This document shows, one piece after another, positions 14,495-59,808 of a DNA stretch of 64,000 nt; within the stretch, counting starts at the first letter, position 1; each line of letters starts with the position of its first letter. Origin of the DNA: a virus; the IMG/VR virus record IMGVR_UViG_3300030101_002520, positions 51,140 through 115,139 of that record. One strand, given 5' to 3'. A model generated the notes under the pieces. It was given only the letters and a program-made list of their open reading frames with translations, searched no databases and had not been told where the DNA came from. A program made the translations under genes and the position numbers.

Positions 14495-15442
14495 ATGATT
14501 GGTATAGGTACATCAATATCTAAAGGTCAAGTAATTAATGACCCCTCATCAATATCTGACTTAGTTGTTTGGTATAATTTTACTGATGTAAGCAGCTTGC
14601 GTAAAAATAGAGATGGAACTACTGCTGTAACTACTAACAATGATGTTGTTCATTGGGCACAAAACCTTGCAAACGGTGATGCAAATGGAATACTAGGAAA
14701 TTTTATACGCTCAGAGGCAGATGGTTCTCAATATGGTGGTATATTTAAAACTGGTGGAATAAATGGTCAATCTTATTTACAATTTGCAGAAACTGATTCA
14801 GATAACTCACATGGGTTAAGATCTGGTTTTATAGCTGCTGATGCTACAGATGATGGTGGTGTTGCCTCTGATAAATTTAGTGATGTAAGTTTTAACGTAT
14901 CTGATCTTACAATTATTCAGGTTTTAAAACATGATGATACTGTTATAGAAGAAGATGATAATGCTTTTTTTATACAAGGTTATCCTGCAGTTGGTGGAGA
15001 TACTAACAGTTTTCAATATGCTGGCTCTAAGAGTCAGTCTACTGAAAAATTTGCTCTAGGATATGTAGTTTCTGCTGGAGGAATTGATTTTGAAAGTAAT
15101 GTAACAAATGATACTCTTGATGCAAGTATACATGCAATGGTTATGAGATCTACACCAGGAGCAAATAATATGACACTACAAGTTGACGGAGTTGTACAAA
15201 CAGATACAGATACACCAGATGATAGAACAATGAAATTTGATAGATCAACTGGAGTAACTACTAATTTAGCTGGAGCTGCTCTGTTAAGTATAGGTGGTAA
15301 TTTTACAGGTGGTGCTAATCTAACAAAGTCTTGGAGAGGTGCTATATATGAAACTATAATATATAGTAGATTTATAACTGATGAAGAATTAGCAAGTTTA
15401 GAGGTGTATTTTGCAGGTAAATATGGAATAACCTTCAGTTAA
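14495..15442 (+). CDS. LamG/concanavalin-like lectin-fold virion protein
   Basis: N-terminal MIGIGTSI, LVVWYNFTD, C-terminal WRGAIYETIIYSRFITDEELASLEVYFAGKYGI typical of LamG-like phage domains. Confidence 0.65.
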   Translation: MIGIGTSISKGQVINDPSSISDLVVWYNFTDVSSLRKNRDGTTAVTTNNDVVHWAQNLANGDANGILGNFIRSEADGSQYGGIFKTGGINGQSYLQFAETDSDNSHGLRSGFIAADATDDGGVASDKFSDVSFNVSDLTIIQVLKHDDTVIEEDDNAFFIQGYPAVGGDTNSFQYAGSKSQSTEKFALGYVVSAGGIDFESNVTNDTLDASIHAMVMRSTPGANNMTLQVDGVVQTDTDTPDDRTMKFDRSTGVTTNLAGAALLSIGGNFTGGANLTKSWRGAIYETIIYSRFITDEELASLEVYFAGKYGITFS

Positions 15443-15464
15443 TTTTAAAAATCATAAAAAATTA

Positions 15465-15475
15465 GTATATTATAA
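15465..15475 (+). promoter_or_regulatory. Putative late promoter motif GTATATTATAA
   Basis: Exact repeat of the 14140 motif, 16 nt before ATG 15492. Confidence 0.55.
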
Positions 15476-15491
15476 TATAAAGTAATTTATA

Positions 15492-15728
15492 ATGGCAAGT
15501 AAAAAAGATATGGAAATGATGGCTGCGAACATGTTTCGTAAGCAACAAGAAGAGTCAATTATAGGTACTATTATGGATGAAATGGCAACTGAAAATATAC
15601 AGTTAAAAAATGCTATTCAACAAATGCAACTCAAAACCTCAAAAGAAAACTTAATAAACCAAGGTAGAACTAAACCTATAGATCTTAGTGTAAGAAGATC
15701 AGGTAAGAGAAAAGGAGGAACAATATAA
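15492..15728 (+). CDS. Hypothetical protein with basic KRKGG tail
   Basis: ORF track; ends RRSGKRKGGTI. Confidence 0.6.
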   Translation: MASKKDMEMMAANMFRKQQEESIIGTIMDEMATENIQLKNAIQQMQLKTSKENLINQGRTKPIDLSVRRSGKRKGGTI

Positions 15729-15741
15729 ATAAATATTTAAT

Positions 15742-16149
15742 ATGGCAACTACTACAGCACAGTTAAAATTAGATAGTGCAGCTGGAAGTTTATTAACTTC
15801 TGTATTGGCTATTGATGATACAGCAACACTAACTAAATTAGGAACAGCAACTGGTTTAGAAAAAACTACCGGTTTAGCTAGGCAAACATTTGCAGCAGCA
15901 ACTGAAACTCAGTTAATAAACGCTGCTAATTATACAGCAGCTAAAGGACATAAACTGTATATAAAAAATACGGATACTTCAGGTACTGATACTGTAAAAT
16001 TGACATCAGGAACAATAGGTGATGTAAAGTCAATAGGCTATCTAGATCCAGATGATTGGGCTTTTATACCTTTTGGAGGAGAAAATGATATAAATGTAAT
16101 ATGTACATCTGCAACAACTGTAGTTGAATGGATGTTAATTTTTGAATAA
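15742..16149 (+). CDS. Small beta-sandwich structural protein, paralog 1
   Basis: MATTT start, LYIKN, LDPDDWAFIPF, VEWMLIF; shares these motifs with three neighbours. Confidence 0.65.
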   Translation: MATTTAQLKLDSAAGSLLTSVLAIDDTATLTKLGTATGLEKTTGLARQTFAAATETQLINAANYTAAKGHKLYIKNTDTSGTDTVKLTSGTIGDVKSIGYLDPDDWAFIPFGGENDINVICTSATTVVEWMLIFE

Positions 16150-16167
16150 TAAATAAAAAAATAAGAT

Positions 16168-16545
16168 ATGGCAACTTTAACCGCGCAAACTAAATTAACA
16201 GTATCAGATATAGTAGCTGATGCTATTGCATTAGATGTATCAATGACTCCTACTGTATTAGCAGGAGGTATTACAAGTAAAACTTTAACATCTGCAAGAG
16301 CAACAGGTTCTGCTTTAACTATTGTAGAAGCAACTCACTATAGTGCAGGTACTATAATTTATTTAAGAAATATGAGTAGTACAGAAACTATAGATGTAGA
16401 ATTAACGTCAGGTACAACGCATATTCAATTAAGTCCTTTACAGTTTGCATTGTTTCCTTGGGAAGCAGCAACTGATATAGAAGTATATTCAACTAATGGA
16501 AGTGAAGTTCCTCAGTTAGAAGTAGGGATATTCTCTGCAGCATAA
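16168..16545 (+). CDS. Small beta-sandwich structural protein, paralog 2
   Basis: MATLT, IYLRN, LSPLQFALFPW, LEVGIFSAA. Confidence 0.65.
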   Translation: MATLTAQTKLTVSDIVADAIALDVSMTPTVLAGGITSKTLTSARATGSALTIVEATHYSAGTIIYLRNMSSTETIDVELTSGTTHIQLSPLQFALFPWEAATDIEVYSTNGSEVPQLEVGIFSAA

Positions 16546-16569
16546 TAATAATTAATAAAAAGTAATAAT

Positions 16570-16953
16570 ATGGCAACTTTAACAAGTCAAGTAAAATTAG
16601 ATATTTCAGGAGTAACTTCTGATCCTATTTCAATAGATAAGAGTTTTTCATATACTGCATTATCTGGAGGTGTAACTAGTAGATCTATTGATGCTACAGC
16701 TCATGGTTCTGCAGAGAAAATTTTAGAATCTAGTGAGTATTCAACAGGATGTGTTGTTTATGTAAGAAATAGAGAAGCTGCAGGAGGTAAATCAATAACA
16801 ATTATGTTATCAGCAGCAGCAAATGGAGAAATAGTATTACAAGGTCAGCAGTGGGCAGTATTTCCTTGGCCAGCTGCAGTAGATGTATTAGCCTTTGCTT
16901 CATCTGCTACTCCAGGACCTATATTAGAAGTAGGAATATTTTCAGCAGCATAG
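16570..16953 (+). CDS. Small beta-sandwich structural protein, paralog 3
   Basis: MATLT, VYVRN, LQGQQWAVFPW, LEVGIFSAA. Confidence 0.65.
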   Translation: MATLTSQVKLDISGVTSDPISIDKSFSYTALSGGVTSRSIDATAHGSAEKILESSEYSTGCVVYVRNREAAGGKSITIMLSAAANGEIVLQGQQWAVFPWPAAVDVLAFASSATPGPILEVGIFSAA

Positions 16954-16956
16954 GTT

Positions 16957-17241
16957 ATGGCAAAAGAATTATCAGAAGATTCAAAGTTTGAAATAAGTCT
17001 AAAGACACTTGGTGGTATAGGTTTTCTAATTACTACACTTGTAAGTATGTGGTTTGTATTACAAGCAGATATTGCTGAAGCTAAAGAACTTCCTGTACCC
17101 CCTCCGCCTGATGTTACTAGGATGGAGTTTCAGATGAAAGATGAAAACATAAGACTATCAATAAAGAACACAGAAGAGAATGTAAAGAAATTGGAGGATA
17201 GACTTATAAGGATAGAGGATAAAATAGATGACATGAAATGA
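16957..17241 (+). CDS. Single-TM protein with C-terminal coiled coil
   Basis: Hydrophobic LGGIGFLITTLVSMWFVL followed by a heptad-like tail. Confidence 0.6.
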   Translation: MAKELSEDSKFEISLKTLGGIGFLITTLVSMWFVLQADIAEAKELPVPPPPDVTRMEFQMKDENIRLSIKNTEENVKKLEDRLIRIEDKIDDMK

Positions 17242-17603
17242 AATGGATAGTTTTAATATGCCTATTATTTTCTTATATATGTAGTGGGCAAGAAGTGCTG
17301 ACTGATAAAACATTTAGTGATAGTCAAGAAGGTGTAACAGTTGTAGAATTTTGGGCAGATTGGAATGCAAAAAATGAATGTGCATGGTTACAAGATTTAG
17401 AAGATGCAGAAGTATATAGAATAGATCTTAATACAAATGCTGCTAAAGAAAATAAAATAACAGTTTTACCTACTGTTATAGTTTTTGATGATGGAGAAGA
17501 GGTTGAAAGGTTTGAAGGAGATATTTCTTTTAGTCTTTGTCCAGAAAAAACACCTAAAAAGGTACAAAAAGAGATTAATGAATTAGTATTAAATAAATTT
17601 TAA
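17238..17603 (+). CDS. Exported thioredoxin-fold protein lacking CxxC
   Basis: Signal peptide; VVEFWADWN in place of FWAxWCxxC; cis-Pro loop ITVLPTVIVFDDGEEVERF. Confidence 0.75.
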   Translation: MKWIVLICLLFSYICSGQEVLTDKTFSDSQEGVTVVEFWADWNAKNECAWLQDLEDAEVYRIDLNTNAAKENKITVLPTVIVFDDGEEVERFEGDISFSLCPEKTPKKVQKEINELVLNKF

Positions 17604-17604
17604 T

Positions 17605-17703
17605 ATGAAAAAATTTTTATGTAAATTATTATGTATAGTTAGTTTTAACTATATATGTTTAAAATGGTGTGATGACAAATCATGCTGCAAAGACAAGTGT
17701 TAA
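17605..17703 (+). CDS. Putative 32-aa Cys-rich peptide
   Basis: Hand-translated MKKFLCKLLCIVSFNYICLKWCDDKSCCKDKC (7 Cys); fills the gap between neighbouring genes. Confidence 0.5.
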   Translation: MKKFLCKLLCIVSFNYICLKWCDDKSCCKDKC

Positions 17704-17723
17704 ATTAAATAAATTTAAGAAAT

Positions 17724-18095
17724 ATGGCAACTTTAACGAGTATAATTCAACTTTCTACAAGTGGTGTAGCAAAAGATAGAGTAAATTTTACATGTTCTAA
17801 AATATCAAATGTAAAAAATCCTGCTATCCAAACTGGTACTTTAGATATTTCAACTATTGCTACTATAGCTACTGCACCGGCAGGAACAAGTTCAAGTGAT
17901 GGAATGTACATGTATGTAAGAAATTTAGACCCTACAGCTCATTTAGATCTTACTTTTGATAGTAACAATACATTAAAAGTAGGACCAGGTGAAATGAGTT
18001 TTTTCTGTGTACATGATTCTAGAGTAGTAAAAGGTACTGCTAGTACTGGAACTATAAAGGTTGAATACGGCACATGGACATTAGATAAGTATTAA
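17724..18095 (+). CDS. Small beta-sandwich structural protein, paralog 4
   Basis: MATLT, MYVRN, VGPGEMSFF, VEYGTW. Confidence 0.62.
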   Translation: MATLTSIIQLSTSGVAKDRVNFTCSKISNVKNPAIQTGTLDISTIATIATAPAGTSSSDGMYMYVRNLDPTAHLDLTFDSNNTLKVGPGEMSFFCVHDSRVVKGTASTGTIKVEYGTWTLDKY

Positions 18096-18113
18096 AAGTA
18101 ATACTTATTTAAT

Positions 18114-21095
18114 ATGAGACAACTAATATTCTTTTTATTAGTTCCTTTTCTCTTGTTTTCACAAGAGTCTTGGATAAATGTGCAGTTATTAACAGATGAT
18201 TATCCAGAAGAAACATCTTGGACTATAACTCCTCCAGGTGGATCACCAATTATTGCACAGTCTGATTCTATAATGCAAGATCAAACTTTGTATGATACAA
18301 TAGTTGATCTTGGAGGAACTATTATTTTTTCTTTATTTGATGAATATGGAGATGGATTAGGTGGCTTTAATGGTTCACCAGAAGGATGGCTTTTAGTACA
18401 AAATGATTGTCAAGATACTATATTATATGTAGCAGGTGATTTTGGTTTTGATTATATAGATACATTAACCATAGCTCCCTGTGCTCCCCCTCTTGCTGGA
18501 TGTCTAGATTCTTTAGCAATAAACTTTAATCCTCTTGCAACTGTAGATGATGGCTCATGTGAGTATCCAGGTTGTGATGGGATTCTTACATCTAATGCAT
18601 ATGATATATGTATAGGTGGAGGAACACAAACACAAATTATATTTGAATGGACATTAGATGATTACAATCCTAATTGTGAAGTAACTAATGTTATTGTATC
18701 AAATGAAGAAGGTTTAGGTCCTCTAAATCTTCCACCAGCTCCCGTAAATAACTTTGGCTTTATAGCAGGTAATGGACAAATGCCACCTAACTGGAGTGTA
18801 GAGCACTACTGTGTATTAGAATTTCTAGATGGTTCTATATCTGATACAATAGTTTATACACCATCTCCATGTATTGCTGGTTGCACAGATCCCACACAAA
18901 TAGCTTATAACCCATGGGCAACATTTGATGATGGTACTTGTACAGGAACATCTTGTGATACAACATCTCAGTATCAGATTACAATGGAGATTATGTTTGA
19001 CAACTGGCCAGGTGAAACAGGTTGGACAATGGTAACCAATTCTGGACAAGATATGCAAATGCCAAATGGGTCATATAACTTTCAAGATATAGGACAAACA
19101 TATACTTATACATTTTGTGTAGATCAAGTTGCACCATGGGAATTAATTGTTACAGATGATTATGGTGATGGTATGGCTGGATCTTCTTCAGGAGGTAATA
19201 TGGATGGTACAATTGTAGTTTATGATTGTGCTGGAGATACTTTATGGAATATGGATAATCCTGGTTTTGGTGATGTATTATACTCAGGAGCACAAAATGC
19301 AAACCCCTGTCCTACTGTACCAACAATACCCGGTTGTGTAGATGATGATTATGTTGAGTTTAACCCAGAAGCCAATGAAGATGATGGATCATGTGCTACA
19401 CTACATACTTATGGTTGTATTAATCCAAATGCTTTTAATTATGATCCTAGCGCAACTATAATGGATTTAGTTCCAGACTGCAACTATGAACTATGGATAG
19501 GTGATGCAGGTGGTGATGGTTGGGGTAATTCTTACTTGGGAATTATGCAGAATGGTCTCATAATAGGTACATATACAATGGGTCCAGGATCTTATGAACA
19601 AACATTTGGTCTTATACTAGATCCAGGTGTGCCAGTTGAAGTATATTACTTTGAGGTAGGAGGGCCACAGCAACCACCTCAAGAAGTAGAGTTTCAAACC
19701 TGGCACAATTCATTTAAGCTAACCAATGCTAATGGTGTTGAGCTAATGTATGAAGGTTATAATCCATTTGCAGATAATGGTCAAGGTGCTTTACAAAACT
19801 TTACATCTCCTTTCTGGACAAAGTATATAGAGATACCCTTTTGTGGGACATACTGTATACCTACAGTTGTTGGTTGTTTAGATCCAACAGCATATAATTA
19901 TAATGAAGAAGCTAACACTGATGACGGATCATGTGAACCTATAGTAGAGGGATGTACAAATGATTTAGCATTTAACTACAATCCAGAAGCTAATGTAGAT
20001 GATGATTCTTGTGTAGCTCTTGTAGTTGGATGTACTGATTCTTCTGCTTGGAACTACAATGCAGATGCAAATGAGGATGACGGTGCTTGTATATACCTAG
20101 GTTGCACTGACTCTTCAGCATGTAACTATAATCCAGGTGCAAATGCAGATAGTGGAGGATGCACTTATCCTGATCAATACTATAATTGCAGTGATGTATG
20201 CATAAATGATACTGACTCAGATGGAATTTGTGATGAGCTTGAAATACTAGGGTGTACTAGTGTAGCTGCTATTAACTATATGCCGGAAGCAACTGATGAT
20301 GACGGCAGTTGTGTTGGTATAGTATACGGTTGTACAGATCCCACTGCTTTTAATTATGACGCTACAGCTAATACAGACAATGGTTCATGTGTGCCTGTAA
20401 TATATGGATGTATAGATAGTACAGCATTCAACTATGATCCAACTGCTAACACAGATAATGGCACTTGTATAGAATTTGTATATGGTTGCATAGATGAAAC
20501 AGCTCTTAACTATGATCCACTAGCAAATACTTTAGATAACTCTTGTTGTTATCTTGGAGGTTGTACTGATGCTACTGCACTAAACTATGATGAAGATGCT
20601 TGTTTTGATGATGGTAGTTGTGTAGTTATAATAGAAGGATGTGCTGACCCTAATGCATACAACTATGATCCGCTAGTTAACTTACCAGACAATAGTGTTT
20701 GTTTATATGATGCTGGTTGCTATGGTGGACCTGGAGAACCTTATTGGTTAAATGATCCTTGTTATGCTTGGGTTATAGATATAGATGGCTATTGTTGTAC
20801 TGAACTATGGGATGAAACTTGTCAATCAATGTATAACTACTGTGAAGATGGTTGGCCTGTAGATCTAGATGAGTTATCAGGTAGTGATATAATTGTTTAT
20901 CCTAACCCTACAGCAAACACATTTACTATAGAAACAAGATTAAATGTAGATGTAGAACTTTATAACATAGTAGGAGAGCTTATACAAACAAATAATATTA
21001 AAAGAATAGATTTATCAGATTATCCAAATGGTATGTATAATTTGATTATTACATATGATAAAATAAGAATAACTAAGAAGATAATTAAACTATAA
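18114..21095 (+). CDS. Secreted Cys/Asp-repeat protein with type IX secretion (Por) type A C-terminal sorting domain
   Basis: Sec signal peptide; ~14 GCxDxxAxNYxxxAxxDDGSC repeats; C-terminal IVYPNPT...VELYNIVGELI...IDLSDYPNGMYNLII...TKKIIKL. Confidence 0.88.
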   Translation: MRQLIFFLLVPFLLFSQESWINVQLLTDDYPEETSWTITPPGGSPIIAQSDSIMQDQTLYDTIVDLGGTIIFSLFDEYGDGLGGFNGSPEGWLLVQNDCQDTILYVAGDFGFDYIDTLTIAPCAPPLAGCLDSLAINFNPLATVDDGSCEYPGCDGILTSNAYDICIGGGTQTQIIFEWTLDDYNPNCEVTNVIVSNEEGLGPLNLPPAPVNNFGFIAGNGQMPPNWSVEHYCVLEFLDGSISDTIVYTPSPCIAGCTDPTQIAYNPWATFDDGTCTGTSCDTTSQYQITMEIMFDNWPGETGWTMVTNSGQDMQMPNGSYNFQDIGQTYTYTFCVDQVAPWELIVTDDYGDGMAGSSSGGNMDGTIVVYDCAGDTLWNMDNPGFGDVLYSGAQNANPCPTVPTIPGCVDDDYVEFNPEANEDDGSCATLHTYGCINPNAFNYDPSATIMDLVPDCNYELWIGDAGGDGWGNSYLGIMQNGLIIGTYTMGPGSYEQTFGLILDPGVPVEVYYFEVGGPQQPPQEVEFQTWHNSFKLTNANGVELMYEGYNPFADNGQGALQNFTSPFWTKYIEIPFCGTYCIPTVVGCLDPTAYNYNEEANTDDGSCEPIVEGCTNDLAFNYNPEANVDDDSCVALVVGCTDSSAWNYNADANEDDGACIYLGCTDSSACNYNPGANADSGGCTYPDQYYNCSDVCINDTDSDGICDELEILGCTSVAAINYMPEATDDDGSCVGIVYGCTDPTAFNYDATANTDNGSCVPVIYGCIDSTAFNYDPTANTDNGTCIEFVYGCIDETALNYDPLANTLDNSCCYLGGCTDATALNYDEDACFDDGSCVVIIEGCADPNAYNYDPLVNLPDNSVCLYDAGCYGGPGEPYWLNDPCYAWVIDIDGYCCTELWDETCQSMYNYCEDGWPVDLDELSGSDIIVYPNPTANTFTIETRLNVDVELYNIVGELIQTNNIKRIDLSDYPNGMYNLIITYDKIRITKKIIKL
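19870..20705 (+). repeat. Tandem coding repeat, ~78 nt (26 aa) GCTD unit
   Basis: About ten near-consecutive GCxDxxAxNY...C units with divergent codons. Confidence 0.85.
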
Positions 21096-22153
21096 TGAGA
21101 ACAGTTCTTTACATATTACTACTTCTATCATTCACGATAAACGCACAAGAAGAAAATAAATTTAAAAAAGAACTTAAAAAAACTTTTAAATTCTCTACAT
21201 TCTATGCTGCAGTAAACGGTGGTACTTCTATTTCAGATCAGAATACATATTCTATATTAGATGGACTTCAAACCGATGTAATAGAAACTCCATTTGATTA
21301 CGCACTAACTTTAGGTGTAAGAAAGATACAAAGATTTGGATACGAGAACAAGGCTAACACATTCAAGGATGGCACAGAGTCTTCATACTCTGATGCCGCT
21401 ACTATTGGACGAACTAGAGGGTTTGAGTTTTTGTTTGAGGCAGATTACAAAAGACAACAAGGTGACTCTTATGTAGACCAACATCACTTCTTACGATACC
21501 TAGCAGACAAATGGGTTGTTAAGGTAGAGTATCTACAAGACGGTTTTGCTGATGTAGAGTATCTAGAAGCATCACAACGATATAGACAAAAGATAGGCAA
21601 AAGATTTTCACTTACTGCAGGGGCAGCACAAAGGATATCCGAACCATATGGTTATGATCCTCTAGCTGAATGGGTATTATCTAACGGAAACATACACTAC
21701 ACAAACCTTGCTTTAGAAGAAGGGTACACCATTGCATTTGACCCAACAGGAATAGAGTATCTATCTCCTAATGGATCTGTTGCAGCTACAAGTACAGAAG
21801 TCTGGGAAGAGGTTGTTATACCTCAAGTTATAGATGACTATGTTAAAGCAAGCAAAGATGCACTCCCTGTACAATGGTGTCACTCTCTTGTAGTAGGTCT
21901 TGATTATTACTACTACACTAAGAAGATCTGGTTACACTCATGGGCAAATGTGCTCCCTTATCACCTCAATACTGGGGGTGAATACTCATATCATAATTTC
22001 AATGGTGGTAATTGGATAGATTATTCTGGCGGATTAATCTTTGGATATAAGATTAACAGGAACCTTGGAATCTTTATTGAAGGTAAATACAATAAGTATT
22101 GGAATAGAGATTGGCATGACTTCAAGTTTGGAATAAATTATATCATTCTTTAA
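21095..22153 (+). CDS. Putative outer-membrane beta-barrel protein
   Basis: Signal peptide; many alternating amphipathic strands rich in aromatic residues; terminal strand DFKFGINYIIL; TAATG-coupled to the T9SS cargo gene. Confidence 0.65.
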   Translation: MRTVLYILLLLSFTINAQEENKFKKELKKTFKFSTFYAAVNGGTSISDQNTYSILDGLQTDVIETPFDYALTLGVRKIQRFGYENKANTFKDGTESSYSDAATIGRTRGFEFLFEADYKRQQGDSYVDQHHFLRYLADKWVVKVEYLQDGFADVEYLEASQRYRQKIGKRFSLTAGAAQRISEPYGYDPLAEWVLSNGNIHYTNLALEEGYTIAFDPTGIEYLSPNGSVAATSTEVWEEVVIPQVIDDYVKASKDALPVQWCHSLVVGLDYYYYTKKIWLHSWANVLPYHLNTGGEYSYHNFNGGNWIDYSGGLIFGYKINRNLGIFIEGKYNKYWNRDWHDFKFGINYIIL

Positions 22154-22170
22154 TTTCTAGGTATTTTTTT

Positions 22171-22179
22171 GTATATTAT
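22171..22179 (+). promoter_or_regulatory. Putative late promoter motif GTATATTAT
   Basis: TTTTTTTGTATATTAT is identical to the 14133-14148 context. Confidence 0.55.
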
Positions 22180-22202
22180 TATATAACCAAAACCGTATTT
22201 AT

Positions 22203-22352
22203 ATGAACTGGATAAACAGTTGGCGTGAGGGAAACAAGAAGAATATTGTTGATCTTACATTTAGATTTGGGGTATTAACCCTGTTTGAATTAAATTGGAA
22301 CCCGAAGAAAAGCTTCAGGTTAATAGTATTAAACTTTGGATTTGAAATATAA
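22203..22352 (+). CDS. Small hypothetical protein (49 aa)
   Basis: Hand-translated MNWINSWREGNKKNIVDLTFRFGVLTLFELNWNPKKSFRLIVLNFGFEI. Confidence 0.55.
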   Translation: MNWINSWREGNKKNIVDLTFRFGVLTLFELNWNPKKSFRLIVLNFGFEI

Positions 22353-22423
22353 TGTGTGTGTGCCCAATATGTGTTATAGTAGCAGCTGTTGCTATAGTAA
22401 GTTATAAGCTAATTAAAACATAA
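22352..22423 (+). CDS. Putative 23-aa CxCxxC plus TM micro-protein
   Basis: TAATG overlap; MCVCPICVIVAAVAIVSYKLIKT. Confidence 0.4.
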   Translation: MCVCPICVIVAAVAIVSYKLIKT

Positions 22424-22427
22424 TATT

Positions 22428-22658
22428 ATGATGAAAGGATTAAAAAATGTTATGGTCACTGATCAAAGAACTCAGATGACTTTTTGTGCAAGCTGTAAAA
22501 GCTGTCCTGCAATTGATATTTCCAAAGACTCAGACAAAGTTATTGTTGGAGGTGATGACGAAGGTTACACTGAGTTCACCAAAGATCAATTTGCTTTGTT
22601 TGTGAAAACAGTTAAGGAAGGTATGTATGATAAGTACCTTCCTGAAACTAAAGATTAA
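22428..22658 (+). CDS. Small CxxCxxC protein, DUF397-like
   Basis: CASCKSCPAIDI...VIVGGDD...FTKDQFALFVKTVKEG resembles the DUF397 layout. Confidence 0.45.
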   Translation: MMKGLKNVMVTDQRTQMTFCASCKSCPAIDISKDSDKVIVGGDDEGYTEFTKDQFALFVKTVKEGMYDKYLPETKD

Positions 22659-22660
22659 AG

Positions 22661-22921
22661 ATGGCAAAAAAGTGGATACAGGATGCAATAAAGAAACCGG
22701 GATCTTTAACAGCAGCAGCTAAAAGAGAGGGTAAAAGTATTACAGAATATTGTAAGACACCACCTTCCACTAAAGCAAAACAAAGGTGTAATTTAGCTAA
22801 TACCTTAAGAAAAATAGCTAAGAAAAGAAAAAAGAAAGCTTGTGGCGGATCAGTTATGTTTTGTGGTGGAGAATATCATTCACCAGTTAAACAAGCTGTA
22901 GGCCCAAATAAAATTTTATAA
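22661..22921 (+). CDS. Small basic protein with C-terminal GPNxxL
   Basis: MAKKWIQDAIKKPGSL...LANTLRK; CGG twice; ends AVGPNKIL. Confidence 0.75.
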   Translation: MAKKWIQDAIKKPGSLTAAAKREGKSITEYCKTPPSTKAKQRCNLANTLRKIAKKRKKKACGGSVMFCGGEYHSPVKQAVGPNKIL

Positions 22922-22923
22922 CT

Positions 22924-23298
22924 ATGGCAGCAAAAGGCCCACTAAGAAATATGTTACTTAGGCTTTTAGGTAAAAGTAAAAATGTTACTACAAACGTTCC
23001 TACAGGCCCTATTAAAGGAAGTCTTGATGAAAGTTTTCAAAAATTTGTTATAAAAAATAACATGTTAAATCAAAAAGGATTTTTTGGACCAGGTGGTTAT
23101 AGAGGAGGTGTAGATAATTTTCAAAAAAGAATAGATCAATTAAAACTTAATACAAAACCTAAAATGACTTTGGAGGAGTATCAAAGGAGTATTGATAACT
23201 TAAGATTACCAGATAATCCACCAAATTCAGGTAAACAATTGGATTTATTTAAAGATAAAAAAAAGGGTGGAAGCGTAGGACCAAATGGAGTGTTATGA
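22924..23298 (+). CDS. Basic protein with C-terminal GPNxxL
   Basis: Ends KKKGGSVGPNGVL. Confidence 0.7.
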   Translation: MAAKGPLRNMLLRLLGKSKNVTTNVPTGPIKGSLDESFQKFVIKNNMLNQKGFFGPGGYRGGVDNFQKRIDQLKLNTKPKMTLEEYQRSIDNLRLPDNPPNSGKQLDLFKDKKKGGSVGPNGVL

Positions 23299-23546
23299 AA
23301 CTATTTAATAAGTTAAGGAAAAGAAGAATAAGTAATAAGATTAATAAACTTAATCAGGAGACTGAAAATCTTCAAGGTAAAGGTTATGGTGTATTTCAAC
23401 CTGCATGGAATGAAGGTGGTAAACAAATTGTAAAGAATACAAAGAAAGTAATGGATTTACAAGATAAATTAAAAAAGTTAAGTAAAAAACATTGCGGTGG
23501 AGGTATGATGTGTGGAGGTGCTGTAGGACCAAATGGTATATTATGA
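23295..23546 (+). CDS. Small basic protein with C-terminal GPNxxL
   Basis: Ends KKHCGGGMMCGGAVGPNGIL. Confidence 0.7.
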   Translation: MKLFNKLRKRRISNKINKLNQETENLQGKGYGVFQPAWNEGGKQIVKNTKKVMDLQDKLKKLSKKHCGGGMMCGGAVGPNGIL

Positions 23547-24043
23547 AAAAATTAATTACATTTTTATTACTAGCACTAACTGCACTAGTTTATGGGCAAG
23601 ATAAAAATGTAAGACCAATAGATGTAGTAGAGAATATAAGTGTATACTTTGTAGACACAGCTTATTATAAGTCTTTGACACTTGACTCACTACATATACA
23701 AAATGTAACTGAGTTTGTTTATGTATCAAACGCAGTAGCTGACACACTAGTTGTGCCTGTTATAGAATTTGTTGAGAGAGTTACAGTTGATACGCTACAC
23801 ATACACGTACCTGAATGCAGAGTAGAATATGTAGAAGTGTATGTAACCGAAGAATTATTGATGCAGGATACTATTGTAGAGATAGAATTTAAAAATGCAC
23901 TTATAAGTTCTAACTCAGGAGTTCAAGAGATTTTAGATAAATCTTTTGGTAATAATATACTATATGATCTTCAAGGTAATCAAATAAGAAGACCAATGGG
24001 AGTTTATATAGAGAATGGTAAAATAAAGTATATAAAAATTTAA
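23543..24043 (+). CDS. Exported protein with short T9SS-CTD-like tail
   Basis: True start probably ATG 23543 (MKKLITFLLLALTALVYGQ signal peptide); C-terminal GVQEI...LYDLQGNQI...GVYIENGKIKYIK. Confidence 0.7.
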   Translation: MKKLITFLLLALTALVYGQDKNVRPIDVVENISVYFVDTAYYKSLTLDSLHIQNVTEFVYVSNAVADTLVVPVIEFVERVTVDTLHIHVPECRVEYVEVYVTEELLMQDTIVEIEFKNALISSNSGVQEILDKSFGNNILYDLQGNQIRRPMGVYIENGKIKYIKI

Positions 24044-24054
24044 AATTTAAAGTT

Positions 24055-24777
24055 ATGCCCGCAAATATGAAAAAATCTGGAATGTCATACAAGAAAGGAG
24101 GTTCCAAAAAAATGTACGGAGGTACAATGAAAAAAAAGAAAATGTATGGAGGAACCATGAAAAAGAAAATGTATGGTGGCTCCAAAAAGAAAATGATGAA
24201 GAAAGGTGGAATGATGAAAGCTAATAAAGGTTTAGAGAAATTAGCTGAAGCAAATCCTGAGCTTACGTATACAAAAAAAATGTATGGTGGTATGGCTAAT
24301 CCAAACAAAGATGAAATGATGATGTATGGTGGTGCTATGTATAAAAAGATGATGAAGATGGCAGGTGGTCCAATGATGAATGAAGAAGGAATGAAAGTAC
24401 CAGGTATGATGAAAGCTGGTGGTGGATTAAGAAAAATGCCAGGTGGTGGTTACATGAGAGATATGGATCTACCTAAAGCACAGTCTGGACTTTTTACAAA
24501 AGGTCTTAAAGGAATAGCAAAAAAATTGGGAAAAGGTAAAATAACAAATCCAAGCACAATAGATAATGTGAATGTGAAGAAAACTCTTTTTCAAGGTGTA
24601 AATAAGAAAGGTGAACAGGTTTTTAAATTAGGAACAGATGGTAATGTATTTACAAAAAAAGATAATGCAATGGCTCCTTTTTTACAGAATAAGGCAAAGA
24701 TCTTAGAAATATTAAGGGGAAACAATCCTACAAAAAATAAAGTTTATAAAAAAGGAACTTTATATGGTCCTAAATAA
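24055..24777 (+). CDS. Met/Lys/Gly-rich basic protein with MYGG/KKGG repeats
   Basis: About a dozen xxGG motifs; LPKAQSG; very basic. Confidence 0.75.
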   Translation: MPANMKKSGMSYKKGGSKKMYGGTMKKKKMYGGTMKKKMYGGSKKKMMKKGGMMKANKGLEKLAEANPELTYTKKMYGGMANPNKDEMMMYGGAMYKKMMKMAGGPMMNEEGMKVPGMMKAGGGLRKMPGGGYMRDMDLPKAQSGLFTKGLKGIAKKLGKGKITNPSTIDNVNVKKTLFQGVNKKGEQVFKLGTDGNVFTKKDNAMAPFLQNKAKILEILRGNNPTKNKVYKKGTLYGPK

Positions 24778-24789
24778 AAAAAATAAACT

Positions 24790-25185
24790 ATGAGTATACT
24801 AAAAAAGATTTTTTCAGGTGCCGGAAGCAACCTGGTAGAATCAGTTGGCGGTGTGATTGATAATTTAGTAACAACAGATGAGGAAAAATTAGAAGCCAAA
24901 AGAAAACTAAAAGAACTCATTATGAGTCATGAGGCTCAGATGGAGAAGAACATAACTGACCGTTGGACAGCAGATATGAACTCTGACTCCTGGCTGAGTA
25001 AAAATGTAAGACCCATGGTTCTTATATTTTTAATTGTATGTACTATGCTATTGATCTTTATTGATGCTGGTGCACTTACGTTTACAGTAGAAGAGAAGTG
25101 GACAGATCTTTTACAATTAGTTTTAATTACAGTAATAGGTGCATATTTTGGTGGCCGTTCTGTAGAAAAATTTAAAAAGAAATGA
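24790..25185 (+). CDS. Holin (GTA 3TM-holin-like)
   Basis: TTDEEK...RWTADMNSDSWLSKNVRP, two TM segments, GAYFGGRSVEK. Confidence 0.75.
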   Translation: MSILKKIFSGAGSNLVESVGGVIDNLVTTDEEKLEAKRKLKELIMSHEAQMEKNITDRWTADMNSDSWLSKNVRPMVLIFLIVCTMLLIFIDAGALTFTVEEKWTDLLQLVLITVIGAYFGGRSVEKFKKK

Positions 25186-25799
25186 GAAAAATAAAAAAAG
25201 AATTACCTAAAGCACAGAGAGGTTATCTTGGGAGACAAGTTGCAAAAATTCTTGGTTTTAGTGATGAAGCTTTAGAAGCAGCTAGAAAAAAACAAGCACA
25301 AATAAATAAGAGGAAGCCTACTAATAAGAATACTAATAAAAGTAAAATTAATACAAATAAAAAGAAGAAGAGTAATAAACAATCTTTTCTTGATAAGCAA
25401 TTTGAGTTTAAAAGTCCTAGTTTACGTCAACTAAATCCACTTAGGATAATTAACCCAGGAATACCAAATACTGCTAGGTTTATTAAAAAAAATCCTCTTG
25501 GTACTGGTGCACTTGGCCTTTCTTTAGCGGCATATTTAAGATCAAGACAACCTGGTATTGATCCAGTACAACCTATAGAAAATTTTAATATTCCAAGTAA
25601 CTTTAGTAATGATTTTAATATAAGCAGAAATACTGAAGCTCCAAATGTAAATTTAGATAGTATTTTGCGTAGTCAAGACTTGTTAAATTTTGATAAGAAA
25701 GGTGGACGTGTTAAAGCTAGAGGTGGTAAAACAGCTCCGGGTATGAGAAAACAAGGTGGTGGTCTTAAGATAGACCGTAATGGTAAATACTACAGGTAA
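25182..25799 (+). CDS. Basic protein with LPKAQxG and terminal GG motifs
   Basis: ELPKAQRG at the N-terminus; KKGG/ARGG/KQGG at the C-terminus. Confidence 0.7.
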   Translation: MRKIKKELPKAQRGYLGRQVAKILGFSDEALEAARKKQAQINKRKPTNKNTNKSKINTNKKKKSNKQSFLDKQFEFKSPSLRQLNPLRIINPGIPNTARFIKKNPLGTGALGLSLAAYLRSRQPGIDPVQPIENFNIPSNFSNDFNISRNTEAPNVNLDSILRSQDLLNFDKKGGRVKARGGKTAPGMRKQGGGLKIDRNGKYYR

Positions 25800-25924
25800 T
25801 GGCAGCTAGAAACACGTTTACATTTAGAAGCAATGGTGGTAAGAAAAGAAGAGGTGTCCACAGTAAAAATGCTAGCAAATCTCAAAATGCCTATAAGAAA
25901 CCCTATAGAGGGCAAGGAAGATAA
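25799..25924 (+). CDS. 41-aa basic peptide ending YRGQGR
   Basis: Hand-translated MAARNTFTFRSNGGKKRRGVHSKNASKSQNAYKKPYRGQGR; TAATG-coupled. Confidence 0.7.
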   Translation: MAARNTFTFRSNGGKKRRGVHSKNASKSQNAYKKPYRGQGR

Positions 25925-25935
25925 AAAAGAGGAGA

Positions 25936-26256
25936 CTATTGATCTCCTCTTTCTTTTATAAGCCCCTCAAGAATTATAAGATAGTTTATGGCATCTCCTA
26001 TTTTTTCTTCTAACAGTTCATCTGTTGGGACCTCTCCGGGACATTTGCTTATAATGGTTTTAATACATTCAAAATGTTTGCAAGCATATTCCCAAGCTAC
26101 ACCTTCTGGTGTATCATGAAAAGAAAAACCTACACCATTTTTAAATGATTGGAATACATCTAGGTCAGTAGCATATTCGTTCATCTTAATAGCATAAGTT
26201 TCTCTAGTTTTAGTGAACCTCTGTTCTAGAAGTTCCATGAATTTGTCATAAGTCAT
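25936..26256 (-). CDS. All-alpha nucleotide pyrophosphatase-like protein (DUF1599/MazG-like)
   Basis: KMNEYA..D...F, KH, EEKIGDAINYLIIL pattern. Confidence 0.5.
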   Translation of the reverse strand: MTYDKFMELLEQRFTKTRETYAIKMNEYATDLDVFQSFKNGVGFSFHDTPEGVAWEYACKHFECIKTIISKCPGEVPTDELLEEKIGDAINYLIILEGLIKERGDQ

Positions 26257-26369
26257 ACTTCTTTTTCAAGCTTTCTTAAGACTTCAGGATCAACAATTGG
26301 CATGCCATCCTCATTCACATTATTAGGAACAGTTGGTTCCTCCATAGAAATCATTTTTTCTAAATCCAT
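26253..26369 (-). CDS. Small acidic hypothetical protein (38 aa)
   Basis: Hand-translated MDLEKMISMEEPTVPNNVNEDGMPIVDPEVLRKLEKEV; ATGA overlap with the next gene. Confidence 0.45.
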   Translation of the reverse strand: MDLEKMISMEEPTVPNNVNEDGMPIVDPEVLRKLEKEV

Positions 26370-26386
26370 AAATAAATAATTAAAAA

Positions 26387-26560
26387 TTAAAGTTCTTCAC
26401 CAAAACATTTTTTCATTAATCTTGTTAATCTTAACTCAATGCTGGTGATTAATTCAGTTAAAGTGGTTAAAGCTAATGCTGTAACCCAGAATATTATAAT
26501 GATAATTAGTAGCATAGAACCGCTAATCATCTTAATGCAATTTAATAAAAATTTTCCCAT
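26387..26560 (-). CDS. Small membrane protein (57 aa)
   Basis: Hand-translated MGKFLLNCIKMISGSMLLIIIIIFWVTALALTTL...; starts right after the radical SAM stop. Confidence 0.45.
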   Translation of the reverse strand: MGKFLLNCIKMISGSMLLIIIIIFWVTALALTTLTELITSIELRLTRLMKKCFGEEL

Positions 26561-58850: not shown

Positions 58851-59147
58851 ATGGCAAAAAATGAAAATATAGTTGAGCAAGATGAAAAAGATCTTGTTGA
58901 AAAAAGAGAGGAAATAACAAAATATTATGAAGAAAATATTCCTCATTTAAAAACTCAGCTTGAATATGAATCTATATTAAGAGATATTGAAAAAACTAGA
59001 GCTGAAAGATTACAAGCACAAATGTTTATGGCTAAGAGTCAAGCTGCTCCACCTGTACCACAAGCACCTCAAACTGGACAGACTCCAGAAAAAGCTGCTT
59101 CAACACCAGCTAAAAGAACCTTAAAAAAAGCAGAAACTAATGACTAA
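58851..59147 (+). CDS. Hypothetical coiled-coil protein
   Basis: ORF track. Confidence 0.65.
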   Translation: MAKNENIVEQDEKDLVEKREEITKYYEENIPHLKTQLEYESILRDIEKTRAERLQAQMFMAKSQAAPPVPQAPQTGQTPEKAASTPAKRTLKKAETND

Positions 59148-59808
59148 ACCAATTAATATAACAAGGGAACAAATAGAGCAGACTATAAAGCAAATGACTG
59201 ATTACTTATGGTTTGAGAAAGGAAACTATAATCTTAATATTGTAGGTATCAGAAATTCTAGTACTGGCGCTAATGTTACTAATAGGTTTGATGATAAAAT
59301 TACATTATCATATAAAACTGGTGAGGTTAAAGATGACAATGGAAATATAATTACTCCTGGAGTATGGAAATTTCATTGTTATGACTGTACTACAGATCCT
59401 GGAACTCATTGGGTAGAAAACATAATGAGAAAAGCTGGAGTTGCAATTCTTAAACCTGGTCAATATAGAGGTAGTCACATTATAAGAAAACATCAAGGTA
59501 GATATGATGCATTAGGTCAAGATAGACCTGTAAAGGTTTATAGAGATAACAATAGAGATGGTCAATATAATCTTTATGAAGAATCTGTGCAAGAAGGTTT
59601 ATTTGGTATTAATATACATAGAGCTACTAAGTATGCAGGTAAAAAATCTACACAAGTAGATAAGTGGTCTGCTGGTTGTCAAGTAATAGCAGCCAATGAT
59701 GATTGGAAAGAGTTTATGAGTATTTGCAGAAAGTCAAAAAAAATATGGGGTAATAGATTTACCTATACTTTATTAGAGAGTGATAAAATATTAACTACAT
59801 GGCTTTAG
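59140..59808 (+). CDS. Putative endolysin, YkuD/L,D-transpeptidase-like cysteine enzyme
   Basis: NIVGIR, TTDPG, GINIHRA...WSAGCQV (H...SxGC). Confidence 0.6.
   Translation: MTKPINITREQIEQTIKQMTDYLWFEKGNYNLNIVGIRNSSTGANVTNRFDDKITLSYKTGEVKDDNGNIITPGVWKFHCYDCTTDPGTHWVENIMRKAGVAILKPGQYRGSHIIRKHQGRYDALGQDRPVKVYRDNNRDGQYNLYEESVQEGLFGINIHRATKYAGKKSTQVDKWSAGCQVIAANDDWKEFMSICRKSKKIWGNRFTYTLLESDKILTTWL

What the first reader, a model, noticed from the sequence alone, without database searches (positions are those of the whole stretch)
16957..24043. Phage-encoded cell-surface module using the host type IX secretion system
Seen: a 993-aa protein with a Sec signal, ~14 Cys/Asp repeats and a full YPNP...KKIIK C-terminal domain is translationally coupled to a signal-bearing, beta-barrel-like protein. 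Nearby are an exported thioredoxin-fold protein, a TM coiled-coil protein and a second exported protein with a YDLQG...GVYI.NGK tail. Known: such C-terminal domains route cargo through the Bacteroidota T9SS to the cell surface. Inference: the phage remodels the infected cell's surface (superinfection exclusion, adhesion/aggregation, grazing defence or T9SS jamming), with the barrel as a dedicated anchor or shuttle and the thioredoxin fold helping to fold the disulfide-rich cargo. Exported cargo of this kind is not expected among the late genes of a lytic phage.
Basis: partly seen in the sequence, partly recalled or inferred. Interest (0 to 1): 0.82.

Follow-up and report, generated by a model that had tools for sequence, protein, structure and literature searches.

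The report
Phage envelope trio plus T9SS fibre
An uncultured 115-kb marine crAss-like phage carries, near its holin, a cysteine-rich protein tagged for the host's type IX secretion system plus a phage-only trio (outer-membrane barrel, inner-membrane coiled-coil protein, inactive periplasmic thioredoxin) that recurs without the tagged protein in other ocean phages and may act at cell lysis; nothing has been tested at the bench.

Summary
ORF 18114-21095 (993 aa) has a Sec-type signal, 14 Cys/Asp loop repeats and a type A T9SS sorting domain above both curated cut-offs. It overlaps by one base (TAATG) a 352-aa protein whose alignment-based AlphaFold model is a 12-strand outer-membrane barrel.

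The stretch is a composite.

1. The barrel, the 94-aa membrane coiled-coil protein and the exported thioredoxin fold form a trio. It is complete in 88 of 88 well-flanked viral loci from three barrel clades. A holin lies within 3 kb in 62 of them.
2. The 993-aa family accompanies the trio in 41/41 loci of the window's clade, 3/38 of a second and 0/9 of a third.

The thioredoxin fold lacks CxxC in 170 of 173 sequences, so it cannot make disulfides. The barrel shows no PorP/SprF similarity. The second "tail" (23543-24043) fails every CTD model.

No canonical spanin is present, so I read the trio as a lysis-linked, spanin-like complex. I read the 993-aa protein as a host-derived, variable T9SS-exported fibre. 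Both functions are inferred.

Contigs from other samples bridge the gene junctions, so the block is not chimeric. This scan has already reported the same cassette on other genomes.

The parts
16957..17241 (+). tm94: 94-aa inner-membrane protein with an N-terminal TM segment, a Pro-rich linker and a ~45-aa periplasmic helix. Trio member 1.
   Evidence: Sequence. 56 distinct homologues share conserved MAKELxED…MWFxLQADIxEAK…TRMEFDMKD. Present in 88/88 well-flanked loci. A 228-aa homologue lies directly upstream of the barrel in clade D, with the alignment covering the TM region.
17238..17603 (+). trx121: Sec-exported thioredoxin-fold protein without the catalytic CxxC. Trio member 2. Its start overlaps tm94 by 4 nt.
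   Evidence: PF00085 E 1.3e-5, 25.6 bits against a cut-off of 23.5. A relative, L123, scores E 3.7e-9. 170/173 distinct family members lack CxxC; the A-x-W-N-x-x-N motif and the cis-Pro 'PT' are kept.
17605..17703 (+). 32-aa Cys-rich micro-ORF (7 Cys), a possible fifth cassette member.
   Evidence: The frame stays open, with conserved Cys and in-frame indels, in at least 25 related loci. It always lies inside the cassette, either after trx or between barrel and tm94.
18114..21095 (+). p993: Sec-signal, acidic, Cys-loop repeat protein with a type A T9SS sorting domain (predicted T9SS cargo or fibre).
   Evidence: At least 5477 homologue clusters, most carrying PF18962 and some also MAM PF00629. 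PDB profile hits only to CTDs: 7pzj, 8glk, 8glj.
18501..20702 (+). Region holding the 14 Cys/Asp loop repeats (aa 130-863), interleaved with two beta-rich D-x-YGDG domains.
   Evidence: Regex and sequence. 48% identity over 301 aa (E 2e-60) to a 1036-aa Sec protein of a Flavobacteriales MAG that lies next to a GH16 laminarinase.
20718..20843 (+). Conserved Cys-rich motif before the tail (…CYAWVIDxDxYCCxxxWDxxCQxxYxYC), nearly invariant in all p993 homologues.
   Evidence: Alignments A1 and A5. This segment has the highest contig depth in four metagenomes.
20895..21089 (+). Type A T9SS C-terminal sorting domain (aa 928-992).
   Evidence: PF18962 E 6.1e-11, and 1.7e-12 on the isolated 100 aa. 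TIGR04183 E 1.2e-10. 28 of 62 homologue C-termini hit PF18962 at E <= 0.01 (best 2.5e-16); the other 34 carry a ~50-aa short tail instead.
21095..22153 (+). p352: phage-only outer-membrane beta-barrel (12 predicted strands) with a conserved 78-108 segment and a 183-259 insert. Trio member 3.
   Evidence: AF2 model. Fold searches. 3644 unannotated homologue clusters. No Pfam hit in 48 members. Nearest named ESM Atlas clusters are all OM barrels. Conservation profile.
23543..24043 (+). p166: small exported protein with a ~28-aa C-terminal tail (YDLQG…GVYIENGKIKY). It belongs to a tail-sharing group of small exported proteins.
   Evidence: Homologues in 6 close loci. 35 distinct 157-310-aa proteins share the same tail; in the loci inspected they lie next to or within ~1 kb downstream of the barrel gene in clade B. 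No CTD HMM hit.
24790..25185 (+). 3-TM holin (GTA_holin_3TM type), the lysis gene linked to the cassette.
   Evidence: phrog_3427 'holin' E 1.4e-32. PF11351 25.1 bits against a cut-off of 24.8. Lies within 3 kb of the cassette in 62/88 loci.
25923..25955 (.). Bidirectional terminator-like hairpin that ends the late (+) block.
59140..59808 (+). Endolysin-like gene of this genome. It is not adjacent here, but its homologues follow the holin in relatives.
   Evidence: tblastn 67% identity to L123:15827-16435, which matches phrog_3000 (E 1.3e-35) and phrog_33083 'endolysin' (E 1.4e-14).

Best explanation
The stretch is a composite late-gene envelope cassette of an uncultured marine crAss-like phage. 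The host is probably a flavobacterium-type Bacteroidota.

Part 1 is a phage-only trio spanning the envelope:
- a type-II inner-membrane protein whose Pro linker and coiled coil reach into the periplasm (16957-17241);
- a Sec-exported, redox-dead thioredoxin-fold protein (17238-17603);
- a 12-strand outer-membrane barrel with conserved non-barrel segments (21095-22153).

I infer that the three form a trans-envelope complex made late in infection and acting at lysis. The most likely role is the outer-membrane step that spanins perform in other phages. A canonical spanin is absent here.

Part 2 is an add-on specific to this clade: a 993-aa acidic, disulfide-looped repeat protein. It would be exported by Sec, fold in the periplasm, and be carried out by the host T9SS through its type A C-terminal domain. 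It would then be displayed on or released from the infected cell as a variable fibre derived from host-type surface proteins.

Shown: the sequence features, the predicted fold, the co-occurrence and the holin linkage. Inferred: the complex, the lysis role, T9SS dependence and surface display.
For: - CTD above both curated cut-offs.
- Barrel fold.
- Trio complete in 41/41, 38/38 and 9/9 well-flanked loci of three barrel clades (about 30-98% barrel identity to the window). p993-like proteins occur in 41/41, 3/38 and 0/9.
- In clade D a longer tm94 homologue lies directly upstream of the barrel, with no cargo or trx.
- Holin within 3 kb in 25/41, 29/38 and 8/9 loci. The clade C holin is confirmed by Pfam at E 2.8e-14.
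- An endolysin-like gene directly follows the holin in several clade A loci and sits beside it in L123.
- Only one lipobox ORF in all six frames of the 115-kb genome. It lies in the replication block next to a UDG-like gene, so there is no canonical two-component or unimolecular spanin.
- Only 6 of 160 holin-bearing loci have a same-strand lipobox ORF within 3 kb of the holin.
- All four exported proteins have Gln after the predicted cleavage site, the Bacteroidetes Q-rule of PMC5837995.
- The p993 repeats are 48% identical to a cellular Flavobacteriales protein encoded beside a GH16 laminarinase.
- p993 diverges much faster than the barrel among close relatives, for example 54% against 98% in L001.
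- The barrel's non-strand segment 78-108 is as conserved as its strands, which fits a protein-contact surface.
Against: - No experiment exists and no cultured member is known: 'phages' holds no p352 match.
- No spanin is known to use a beta-barrel or a thioredoxin fold, and membrane fusion by a barrel has no precedent.
- Holin proximity could simply reflect packing of late accessory genes. In this genome the holin is 2.6 kb from the barrel, with small unrelated genes between, and the endolysin-like gene is 34 kb away.
- In 79 of 88 loci (clades A and B) the cassette includes an exported protein with a CTD or a CTD-like tail (p993-like in A, the p166-type tail group in B). In the loci inspected it lies next to or near the barrel gene, which fits the cargo-partner reading.
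- 34 of 62 p993 homologues have lost the canonical CTD, so T9SS dependence is not general.
- The portal's best cultured relative is a cyanophage (Leptolyngbya phage, 34% identity), so host assignment rests on indirect signs.
Confidence: 0.5

Rival explanations
1. All members form one surface-display module. The barrel is the dedicated anchor or shuttle (PorV- or PorP/SprF-like) for the T9SS cargo and for the small tail-bearing proteins. The inner-membrane and thioredoxin-fold proteins assist export. The purpose is to remodel the infected cell's surface for exclusion, adhesion or grazing defence.
For: - One-base translational coupling of cargo and barrel.
- In clade B loci, small exported proteins with the p166-type tail lie next to or near the barrel gene (35 distinct sequences).
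- Canonical CTD and short tail occupy the same C-terminal position in p993 homologues.
- The barrel has a conserved 75-aa insert in what would be an outer loop.
- PorV is among the structural matches, Z 7.2.
Against: - The trio exists without any tail-bearing protein in clade C (9/9) and in the small clade D sample, within the +/-10 kb fetched.
- hhalign against PorP/SprF aligns only the signal peptide.
- The PorV match is no better than generic barrel matches.
- The short tails fail PF18962 even at E 10.
- The thioredoxin fold has no redox cysteines.
Confidence: 0.22
2. The trio is a superinfection-exclusion or envelope-guard system, comparable in logic to T4 Imm/Sp or T5 Llp. Proteins placed in each envelope layer late in infection block DNA entry or adsorption by other phages, or stop progeny re-adsorbing. 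The variable fibre contributes by masking receptors.
For: - The proteins are predicted to sit in all envelope layers.
- The fibre is hypervariable.
- From my own knowledge, not checked here: T9SS/gliding surface proteins have been linked to phage susceptibility in flavobacteria.
Against: - Exclusion genes are usually early or lysogeny-expressed, small and sporadic. Here the trio is universal within each clade and lies in the late block beside lysis genes.
- There is no similarity to any known exclusion protein: PHROG and Pfam give nothing.
Confidence: 0.12
3. The block is an assembly chimera or a recent host insert with no role in the phage.
For: GC is slightly higher over 18-22 kb (0.36 against ~0.31). 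The repeats have cellular homologues.
Against: - The same genes in the same phage context occur in 41/41 well-flanked IMG/VR loci.
- Contigs from four runs of three studies cover all of 14000-27000 and bridge the junctions at 16953/16957, 18095/18114 and 21095.
- Barrel homologues were recovered only from viral or metagenomic contigs and carry no cellular annotation.
Confidence: 0.02

Closest known systems
Phage-encoded T9SS type A cargo genes: 'Cryophage' (Bellas et al. 2020, PMC7468147) and T9SS sorting domains near crAss-BACON ORFs (de Jonge et al. 2019, PMC6949934)
   Same: A phage of Bacteroidota encodes proteins ending in the type A sorting domain. The cargo varies strongly between phage variants. 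Both papers propose hijack of the host T9SS.
   Different: The published cases have recognisable enzyme or BACON bodies (endoglucanase, GH39, PA14). Neither paper, in the passages I read, mentions a partner barrel, membrane protein or thioredoxin fold, or a link to lysis genes. Here the body is a Cys-loop repeat fibre with no Pfam domain, and it sits inside a conserved envelope cassette.
Two-component spanins (lambda Rz/Rz1, T4 PseT.3/PseT.2; Kongari et al. 2018, PMC6139136)
   Same: - An N-terminally anchored inner-membrane protein with a periplasmic coiled coil, of similar size (T4 i-spanin is 117 aa).
- It is encoded beside an outer-membrane partner and near the holin and endolysin.
- The genome otherwise lacks a spanin. 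Kongari et al. found no spanin in 91/677 phages, including Bacteroides and Croceibacter phages.
   Different: The outer-membrane partner is a 352-aa beta-barrel, not a small lipoprotein. A third, periplasmic thioredoxin-fold protein is always present. There is no sequence similarity to any spanin family, and no function has been shown.
PorP/SprF-like and PorV outer-membrane partners of T9SS cargo
   Same: A barrel of about 350 aa in a Bacteroidota setting, encoded next to a T9SS-tagged protein.
   Different: No Pfam PF11751 hit in 48 members, and hhalign aligns only the signal peptide. From my own knowledge, not checked here, PorP/SprF partners serve type B CTDs, whereas this cargo is type A. 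The PorV structural match (Z 7.2) is not above generic barrels.
Cellular Flavobacteriales Cys-loop repeat surface proteins (e.g. the 1036-aa protein at L280:180-3290, beside a GH16 laminarinase)
   Same: Sec signal with Gln at +1, 13 copies of the same ~20-aa Cys/Asp loop (48% identity over 301 aa), and a C-terminal tail that looks T9SS-like by eye (…KKIIKSK; not tested with an HMM).
   Different: The cellular gene sits in a glycan-utilisation neighbourhood with no barrel, TM protein or trx partners. Its N-terminal domains differ.

Membership tests
T9SS type A cargo (PF18962 / TIGR04183) | C-terminal sorting domain scoring above the curated cut-off and placed at the extreme C-terminus | tested here: met
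   p993 aa 928-992 of 993: PF18962 42.9 bits (cut-off 27) and TIGR04183 41.2 bits (cut-off 23). The profile also hits solved CTDs 8glk and 8glj.
T9SS type A cargo (PF18962 / TIGR04183) | N-terminal Sec signal peptide | tested here: met
   MRQLIFFLLVPFLLFS|QESW: a hydrophobic core followed by Gln (Q-rule). Judged by eye and a crude script only, without SignalP.
T9SS type A cargo (PF18962 / TIGR04183) | The host possesses a T9SS and secretion depends on it | not testable with these tools
   The host is unknown. Indirect signs: three Bacteroidota MAGs that hold related phage contigs each have 6 PorP/SprF genes, and a Flavobacteriales MAG holds a cellular homologue of the repeats. Binning of phage contigs is unreliable.
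T9SS type A cargo, second candidate (p166, 23543-24043) | C-terminal sorting domain recognised by the family model | tested here: not met
   No PF18962 or TIGR04183 hit on the whole protein (E<=0.1) or on the last 60 aa (E<=10). No hit to my own full-CTD or short-tail HMMs. Only motif-level resemblance remains.
PorP/SprF (PF11751) | Sequence or profile similarity to the family | tested here: not met
   No Pfam hit in any of 48 barrel homologues. hhalign of A2 against 10 PorP/SprF proteins aligns only the 28-column signal peptide.
PorV / FadL-like T9SS shuttle | Structural similarity clearly above generic barrels | tested here: inconclusive
   6h3i_F scores Z 7.2, rmsd 6.6, 191 aligned residues, ranking below OmpG, NanC, Tsx and autotransporter barrels.
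Outer-membrane beta-barrel protein | Signal peptide, closed antiparallel barrel of amphipathic strands, and a C-terminal strand ending in an aromatic or hydrophobic residue | tested here: met
   The AF2 model has 12 strands (pLDDT 77.6). All top fold hits are OM barrels. The family consensus ends …NYxIF.
Thioredoxin (PF00085) | Thioredoxin fold recognised by the model | tested here: met
   25.6 bits against a cut-off of 23.5. Relative L123 scores 36.9 bits.
Thioredoxin (PF00085) | Catalytic CxxC (WCGPC) motif | tested here: not met
   The motif is replaced by W-N-x-x-N. 170/173 distinct homologues have no CxxC.
Two-component spanin | i-spanin: N-terminal TM domain plus periplasmic coiled coil | tested here: met
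   tm94 has a TM segment at about aa 17-36, a PVPPPP linker and a heptad-rich helix to the C-terminus. Judged by sequence inspection, not by a coiled-coil predictor.
Two-component spanin | o-spanin: small outer-membrane lipoprotein with a lipobox, encoded within or beside the i-spanin gene | tested here: not met
   The only lipobox ORF in six frames of the genome is at 30272-30460 (-), in the replication block. The gene beside tm94 is an SPI-type thioredoxin fold.
Two-component spanin | Location in the lysis cassette | tested here: inconclusive
   A holin lies within 3 kb in 62/88 loci, and an endolysin-like gene is adjacent in some relatives. In this genome the holin is 2.6 kb away and the endolysin-like gene 34 kb away.
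Two-component spanin | Required for outer-membrane disruption at lysis | not testable with these tools
   No cultured member is known.
GTA_holin_3TM holin (PF11351 / phrog_3427) | Match to the family models | tested here: met
   24790-25185: phrog_3427 E 1.4e-32 and PF11351 25.1 bits against a cut-off of 24.8.

The most novel reading that the evidence does not exclude
The barrel, membrane coiled-coil and dead-thioredoxin trio is a new class of phage outer-membrane disruption device. It would be a three-part, barrel-based equivalent of spanins used by many marine Bacteroidota phages. The CTD-like short tails of the accompanying exported proteins would dock on the phage barrel rather than on, or in addition to, the host T9SS.
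Probability: 0.3. Interest if true: 0.85.

Novelty: new variant of a known kind. Interest (0 to 1): 0.62.

Why it matters
How phages of Bacteroidota breach the outer membrane is largely unknown, and many such phages have no recognisable spanin.

- The trio is phage-only. The barrel family alone has at least 3644 clusters at 90% identity, none annotated.
- It lies beside holins in several unrelated ocean phage lineages.
- It is a concrete, testable candidate for the missing outer-membrane step, or for a new kind of late envelope function.

Separately, the T9SS-tagged hypervariable fibre has more than 5000 clusters. This suggests that use of the host T9SS by lytic marine phages is common rather than the "unique occurrence" reported in 2020. 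It also offers a natural system for asking what a T9SS signal minimally needs, by comparing the full CTD with the ~50-aa short tail on otherwise homologous proteins.

Tried and rejected
**Searches and models that gave nothing**
- Single-sequence AlphaFold of the barrel was useless (pLDDT 37.7).
- Pfam, NCBIfam and PHROGs gave nothing for the barrel, tm94 (only phrog_12220, unknown function, E 0.001) or p166, nor for the p993 body cut into six pieces at E<=10. The only p993 result was a sub-threshold T4_Y03C hit at E 0.011.
- The PDB sequence search of p993 and of its profile found only CTDs.
- The ESM Atlas on p993 aa 286-580 was uninformative.
- The 'phages' collection has no DNA match, no p352 match and only one weak p993 repeat match.
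- Alignment A2 was too diverse for the genome-contig scan. A3 found only 9 MAG contigs with scattered taxonomy, which are probably mis-binned phage contigs.
- P0222 and P0184 found no viral loci.

**Tests with negative results**
- Short tail against my full-CTD HMM gave only E 0.01-1 over the last ~20 residues, which is not significant. The short-tail HMM does not hit p166.
- Amidase_2, Phage_lysozyme, Peptidase_M15_4 and SLT are absent from the genome.
- The proteins downstream of the holin in this and several related loci have no Pfam match.
- The sigma-70 promoter scan found fewer sites than shuffles, so it says nothing.
- No RNA holder was listed among public runs, so expression is untested.

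**Ideas dropped**
- That the acidic fibre chelates divalent cations to loosen LPS. I rejected this on my own reasoning, because seawater Ca/Mg is in the millimolar range.
- That the 62-aa lipoprotein at 30272-30460 pairs with an i-spanin. Its upstream neighbour is UDG-like (GQDPYP motif).

Full report
**Setting**

The window is the last 64 kb of a 115,139-bp IMG/VR virus record rated 98% complete.
- The record encodes a portal (phrog_6547, E 1.3e-90) and a major head protein.
- It also encodes DNA polymerase, ribonucleotide reductase and a helicase, and giant proteins of 2979, 4979 and 1938 aa.
- Portal relatives are a Leptolyngbya phage (34%), Cellulophaga phages phi17:2/phi4:1 (25%) and Bacteroides crAss-like phages (23%). 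It is therefore a distant marine crAss-like phage.
- The finding lies in the last 9 kb of a long + strand block. That block is continuous with the structural genes and ends at a bidirectional terminator-like hairpin at 25923-25955.

**Observation**

All the described elements are present.

*The 993-aa protein (18114-21095)*
- It starts with a hydrophobic signal followed by Gln.
- It holds 53 Cys, 102 Asp and 11 Lys+Arg.
- It carries 14 copies of a ~20-residue Cys/Asp loop.
- It ends in a type A sorting domain: PF18962 42.9 bits (cut-off 27) and TIGR04183 41.2 bits (cut-off 23).
- A profile of the family hits solved CTDs and nothing else in the PDB.
- Its stop shares one base with the start of the 352-aa ORF.

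*The 352-aa protein (21095-22153)*
- It has no Pfam, NCBIfam or PHROG match.
- A single-sequence fold failed.
- A fold on 48 homologues gave pLDDT 77.6 and 12 long strands.
- Foldseek and VIA-align returned only outer-membrane barrels: NanC, FapF, OmpG, Tsx and autotransporter beta-domains, with Z up to 10.4.
- The nearest named ESM Atlas clusters are also OM barrels.

*The other members*
- The 121-aa protein passes the thioredoxin model.
- The 94-aa protein has a TM segment, a PPPP linker and a long helix.
- The 166-aa protein (true start 23543) has a signal and the quoted tail, but no CTD model recognises it at any threshold tried.

**Not a chimera**
- 93 IMG/VR stretches encode a barrel relative.
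- All 41 loci with at least 5.5 kb on both sides carry the four genes, in three circular permutations of one order.
- Contigs from four marine runs of three studies cover all of 14000-27000. They bridge the junctions at 16953/16957, 18095/18114 and 21095.

**The turn in the analysis**

The barrel family has 3644 clusters at 90% identity, none annotated. It has 336 representatives at 50% identity. I fetched loci around three distant branches and scored them with HMMs built here.

| Clade | Barrel identity to window | Trio complete | p993-like protein | Holin within 3 kb |
|---|---|---|---|---|
| A (window's clade) | 54-98% | 41/41 | 41/41 | 25/41 |
| B | ~35% | 38/38 | 3/38 | 29/38 |
| C | ~30% | 9/9 | 0/9 | 8/9 |

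- In clade D (~28%) a 228-233-aa protein lies directly upstream of the barrel, with no trx and no cargo. Its middle part aligns to tm94, TM segment included. Only three clade D loci had adequate flanks.
- The barrel's constant partners are therefore the membrane protein and the thioredoxin fold, not the T9SS cargo.
- The clade C holin was confirmed by Pfam (E 2.8e-14).
- A 202-205-aa protein matches phrog_3000 (unknown function, E 1.3e-35) and phrog_33083 'endolysin' (E 1.4e-14). It directly follows the holin in several clade A loci and sits beside it in L123.
- In the window's genome the homologue of that protein is at 59140-59808.

**The thioredoxin fold is not a redox enzyme**

Of 173 distinct sequences from clades A-C, 170 have no CxxC. 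The WCGPC position reads W-N-x-x-N, while the cis-Pro loop is kept.

**The barrel is not PorP/SprF by sequence**
- None of 48 members hits any Pfam family.
- hhalign against ten PorP/SprF proteins taken from Bacteroidota MAGs aligns only the signal peptide.
- Its non-strand segment 78-108 is as conserved as the strands, and the 183-259 insert is moderately conserved. This fits protein-protein contacts better than exposed, fast-evolving loops.

**No canonical spanin**
- A six-frame scan of the genome finds one lipobox ORF, at 30272-30460 (-). It lies in the replication block, downstream of a UDG-like gene.
- Of 160 holin-bearing loci, 6 have a same-strand lipobox ORF within 3 kb of the holin.
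- Kongari et al. (PMC6139136) found no spanin in 91 of 677 phages, including Bacteroides and Croceibacter phages. They give 117 aa for the T4 i-spanin.
- Candidate spanins have been reported in Porphyromonas phages (PMC10367356), so the phylum is not devoid of them.

**The cargo**
- At least 5477 clusters resemble p993 aa 286-930. Most carry PF18962 and some also carry a MAM domain.
- Among 62 distinct C-termini from the loci, 28 have the full CTD. The other 34 have a ~50-residue tail (…LPKR…ITDLLGRP…LFYIYDDGTVEKKIIK) at the same position.
- The short tail resembles the last strands of a CTD by eye but not statistically.
- In clade B, 35 distinct small exported proteins carry the p166-type tail. 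In the loci inspected they lie next to or within ~1 kb downstream of the barrel gene. A link between the barrel and tail-bearing proteins therefore cannot be dismissed.
- Among close relatives p993 diverges far faster than the barrel, for example 54% against 98% in L001.
- Its repeats are 48% identical over 301 aa (E 2e-60) to a 1036-aa Sec protein of a Flavobacteriales MAG. That protein is encoded beside a GH16 laminarinase (PDB 3azx, E 2e-45) on a contig with bacterial genes. The fibre is thus built from host-type surface-protein modules.

**Host**

A Bacteroidota host is indicated by four signs:
- the CTD itself;
- Gln after every predicted signal cleavage site (Q-rule, PMC5837995);
- the cellular homologue of the repeats;
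- Bacteroidota MAG bins for 3 of the 9 MAG contigs that hold the barrel.

The cyanophage as best portal relative is a caution.

**Reading**

Shown:
- a real type A CTD cargo in a phage;
- a predicted OM barrel;
- a strictly co-inherited trio predicted to sit in the inner membrane, periplasm and outer membrane;
- linkage to a holin;
- a redox-dead thioredoxin fold;
- absence of a canonical spanin.

Inferred:
- the trio forms a trans-envelope complex that acts at lysis;
- the fibre is exported by the host T9SS and displayed or released.

Its claims about the thioredoxin fold and the second CTD fail. Its barrel-as-anchor claim is weakened.

**Literature and earlier notes**
- Phage-encoded T9SS cargo has been noted twice: PMC7468147 and PMC6949934. 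I found no paper describing the trio.
- After I had reached the trio and holin result, earlier notes of this scan showed the same cassette reported on many other genomes with similar readings. These are not independent evidence.

Noticed in passing
window 16168-16545, 16570-16953, 17724-18095: Three paralogous 123-127-aa proteins start MATLT… and end …EVGIFSAA in two cases. They are interleaved with the cassette and have no family match. Small proteins with similar 'MAT…' N-termini sit beside the trio in clades B and D (L103, L107, L123), though I did not test whether they are homologous.
   Followed up: partly
window 17605-17703: A 32-aa micro-ORF with 7 Cys (MKKFLCKLLC…CCKDKC). The frame is open and the Cys are conserved in at least 25 related loci, always inside the cassette. 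It is missing from a standard 60-aa ORF list.
   Followed up: partly
window 30272-30460 (-): The only canonical lipobox ORF of the whole genome (62 aa, …LIFTSC…). It contains one copy of the Cys-loop motif (CCDWDAINFDPNYNG) and lies between the DNA polymerase gene and a UDG-like gene (30463-31233, GQDPYP motif).
   Followed up: partly
window 45914-46399 (-): A 161-aa protein in the replication block. It has a Sec-type signal with Gln at +1, followed by a His/Lys-rich run (KPKHKNKHGHKGKHHNHHVHKP).
   Followed up: no
L011:9813-10004, L020:8198-8389, L018:6553-6753, L010:12874-13440: In L011 and L020 a 63-aa Pro-rich lipoprotein (…VGCGLFNPAKYNPNPTP…) is inserted between the p993 and barrel genes. 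L018 has a similar 66-aa lipoprotein just upstream of its holin. In L010 the p166 homologue itself has a lipoprotein signal. Small Pro-rich lipoproteins are what o-spanins look like.
   Followed up: no
L204, L218, L229, L248 (clade C loci): Near the holin these loci encode 182-217-aa proteins with an N-terminal hydrophobic segment and a C-terminal …YWKEHYNT..GAG..EHF motif. They are possible signal-anchor-release endolysins. I did not test them.
   Followed up: no
L011 and L013 (IMGVR_UViG_3300030098_004828, 245,646 bp): One contig holds two diverged copies of the whole cassette about 119 kb apart. It is probably a join of two related ~115-kb phage genomes.
   Followed up: no
window 24055-24777: A 240-aa low-complexity protein rich in Lys, Gly and Met (KKMYGG repeats) lies between p166 and the holin. 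It has no family match.
   Followed up: no
window 18001-22000: GC is 0.36 over the p993 and barrel genes against ~0.31 in the flanks. This could reflect amino-acid composition or foreign origin of the repeats.
   Followed up: no
L001-L022 (close relatives): The thioredoxin-fold gene comes in two forms, 121 aa and 107 aa. They are only 35-44% identical, and they occur among phages whose barrels are 85-98% identical. This indicates module swapping within the cassette.
   Followed up: no
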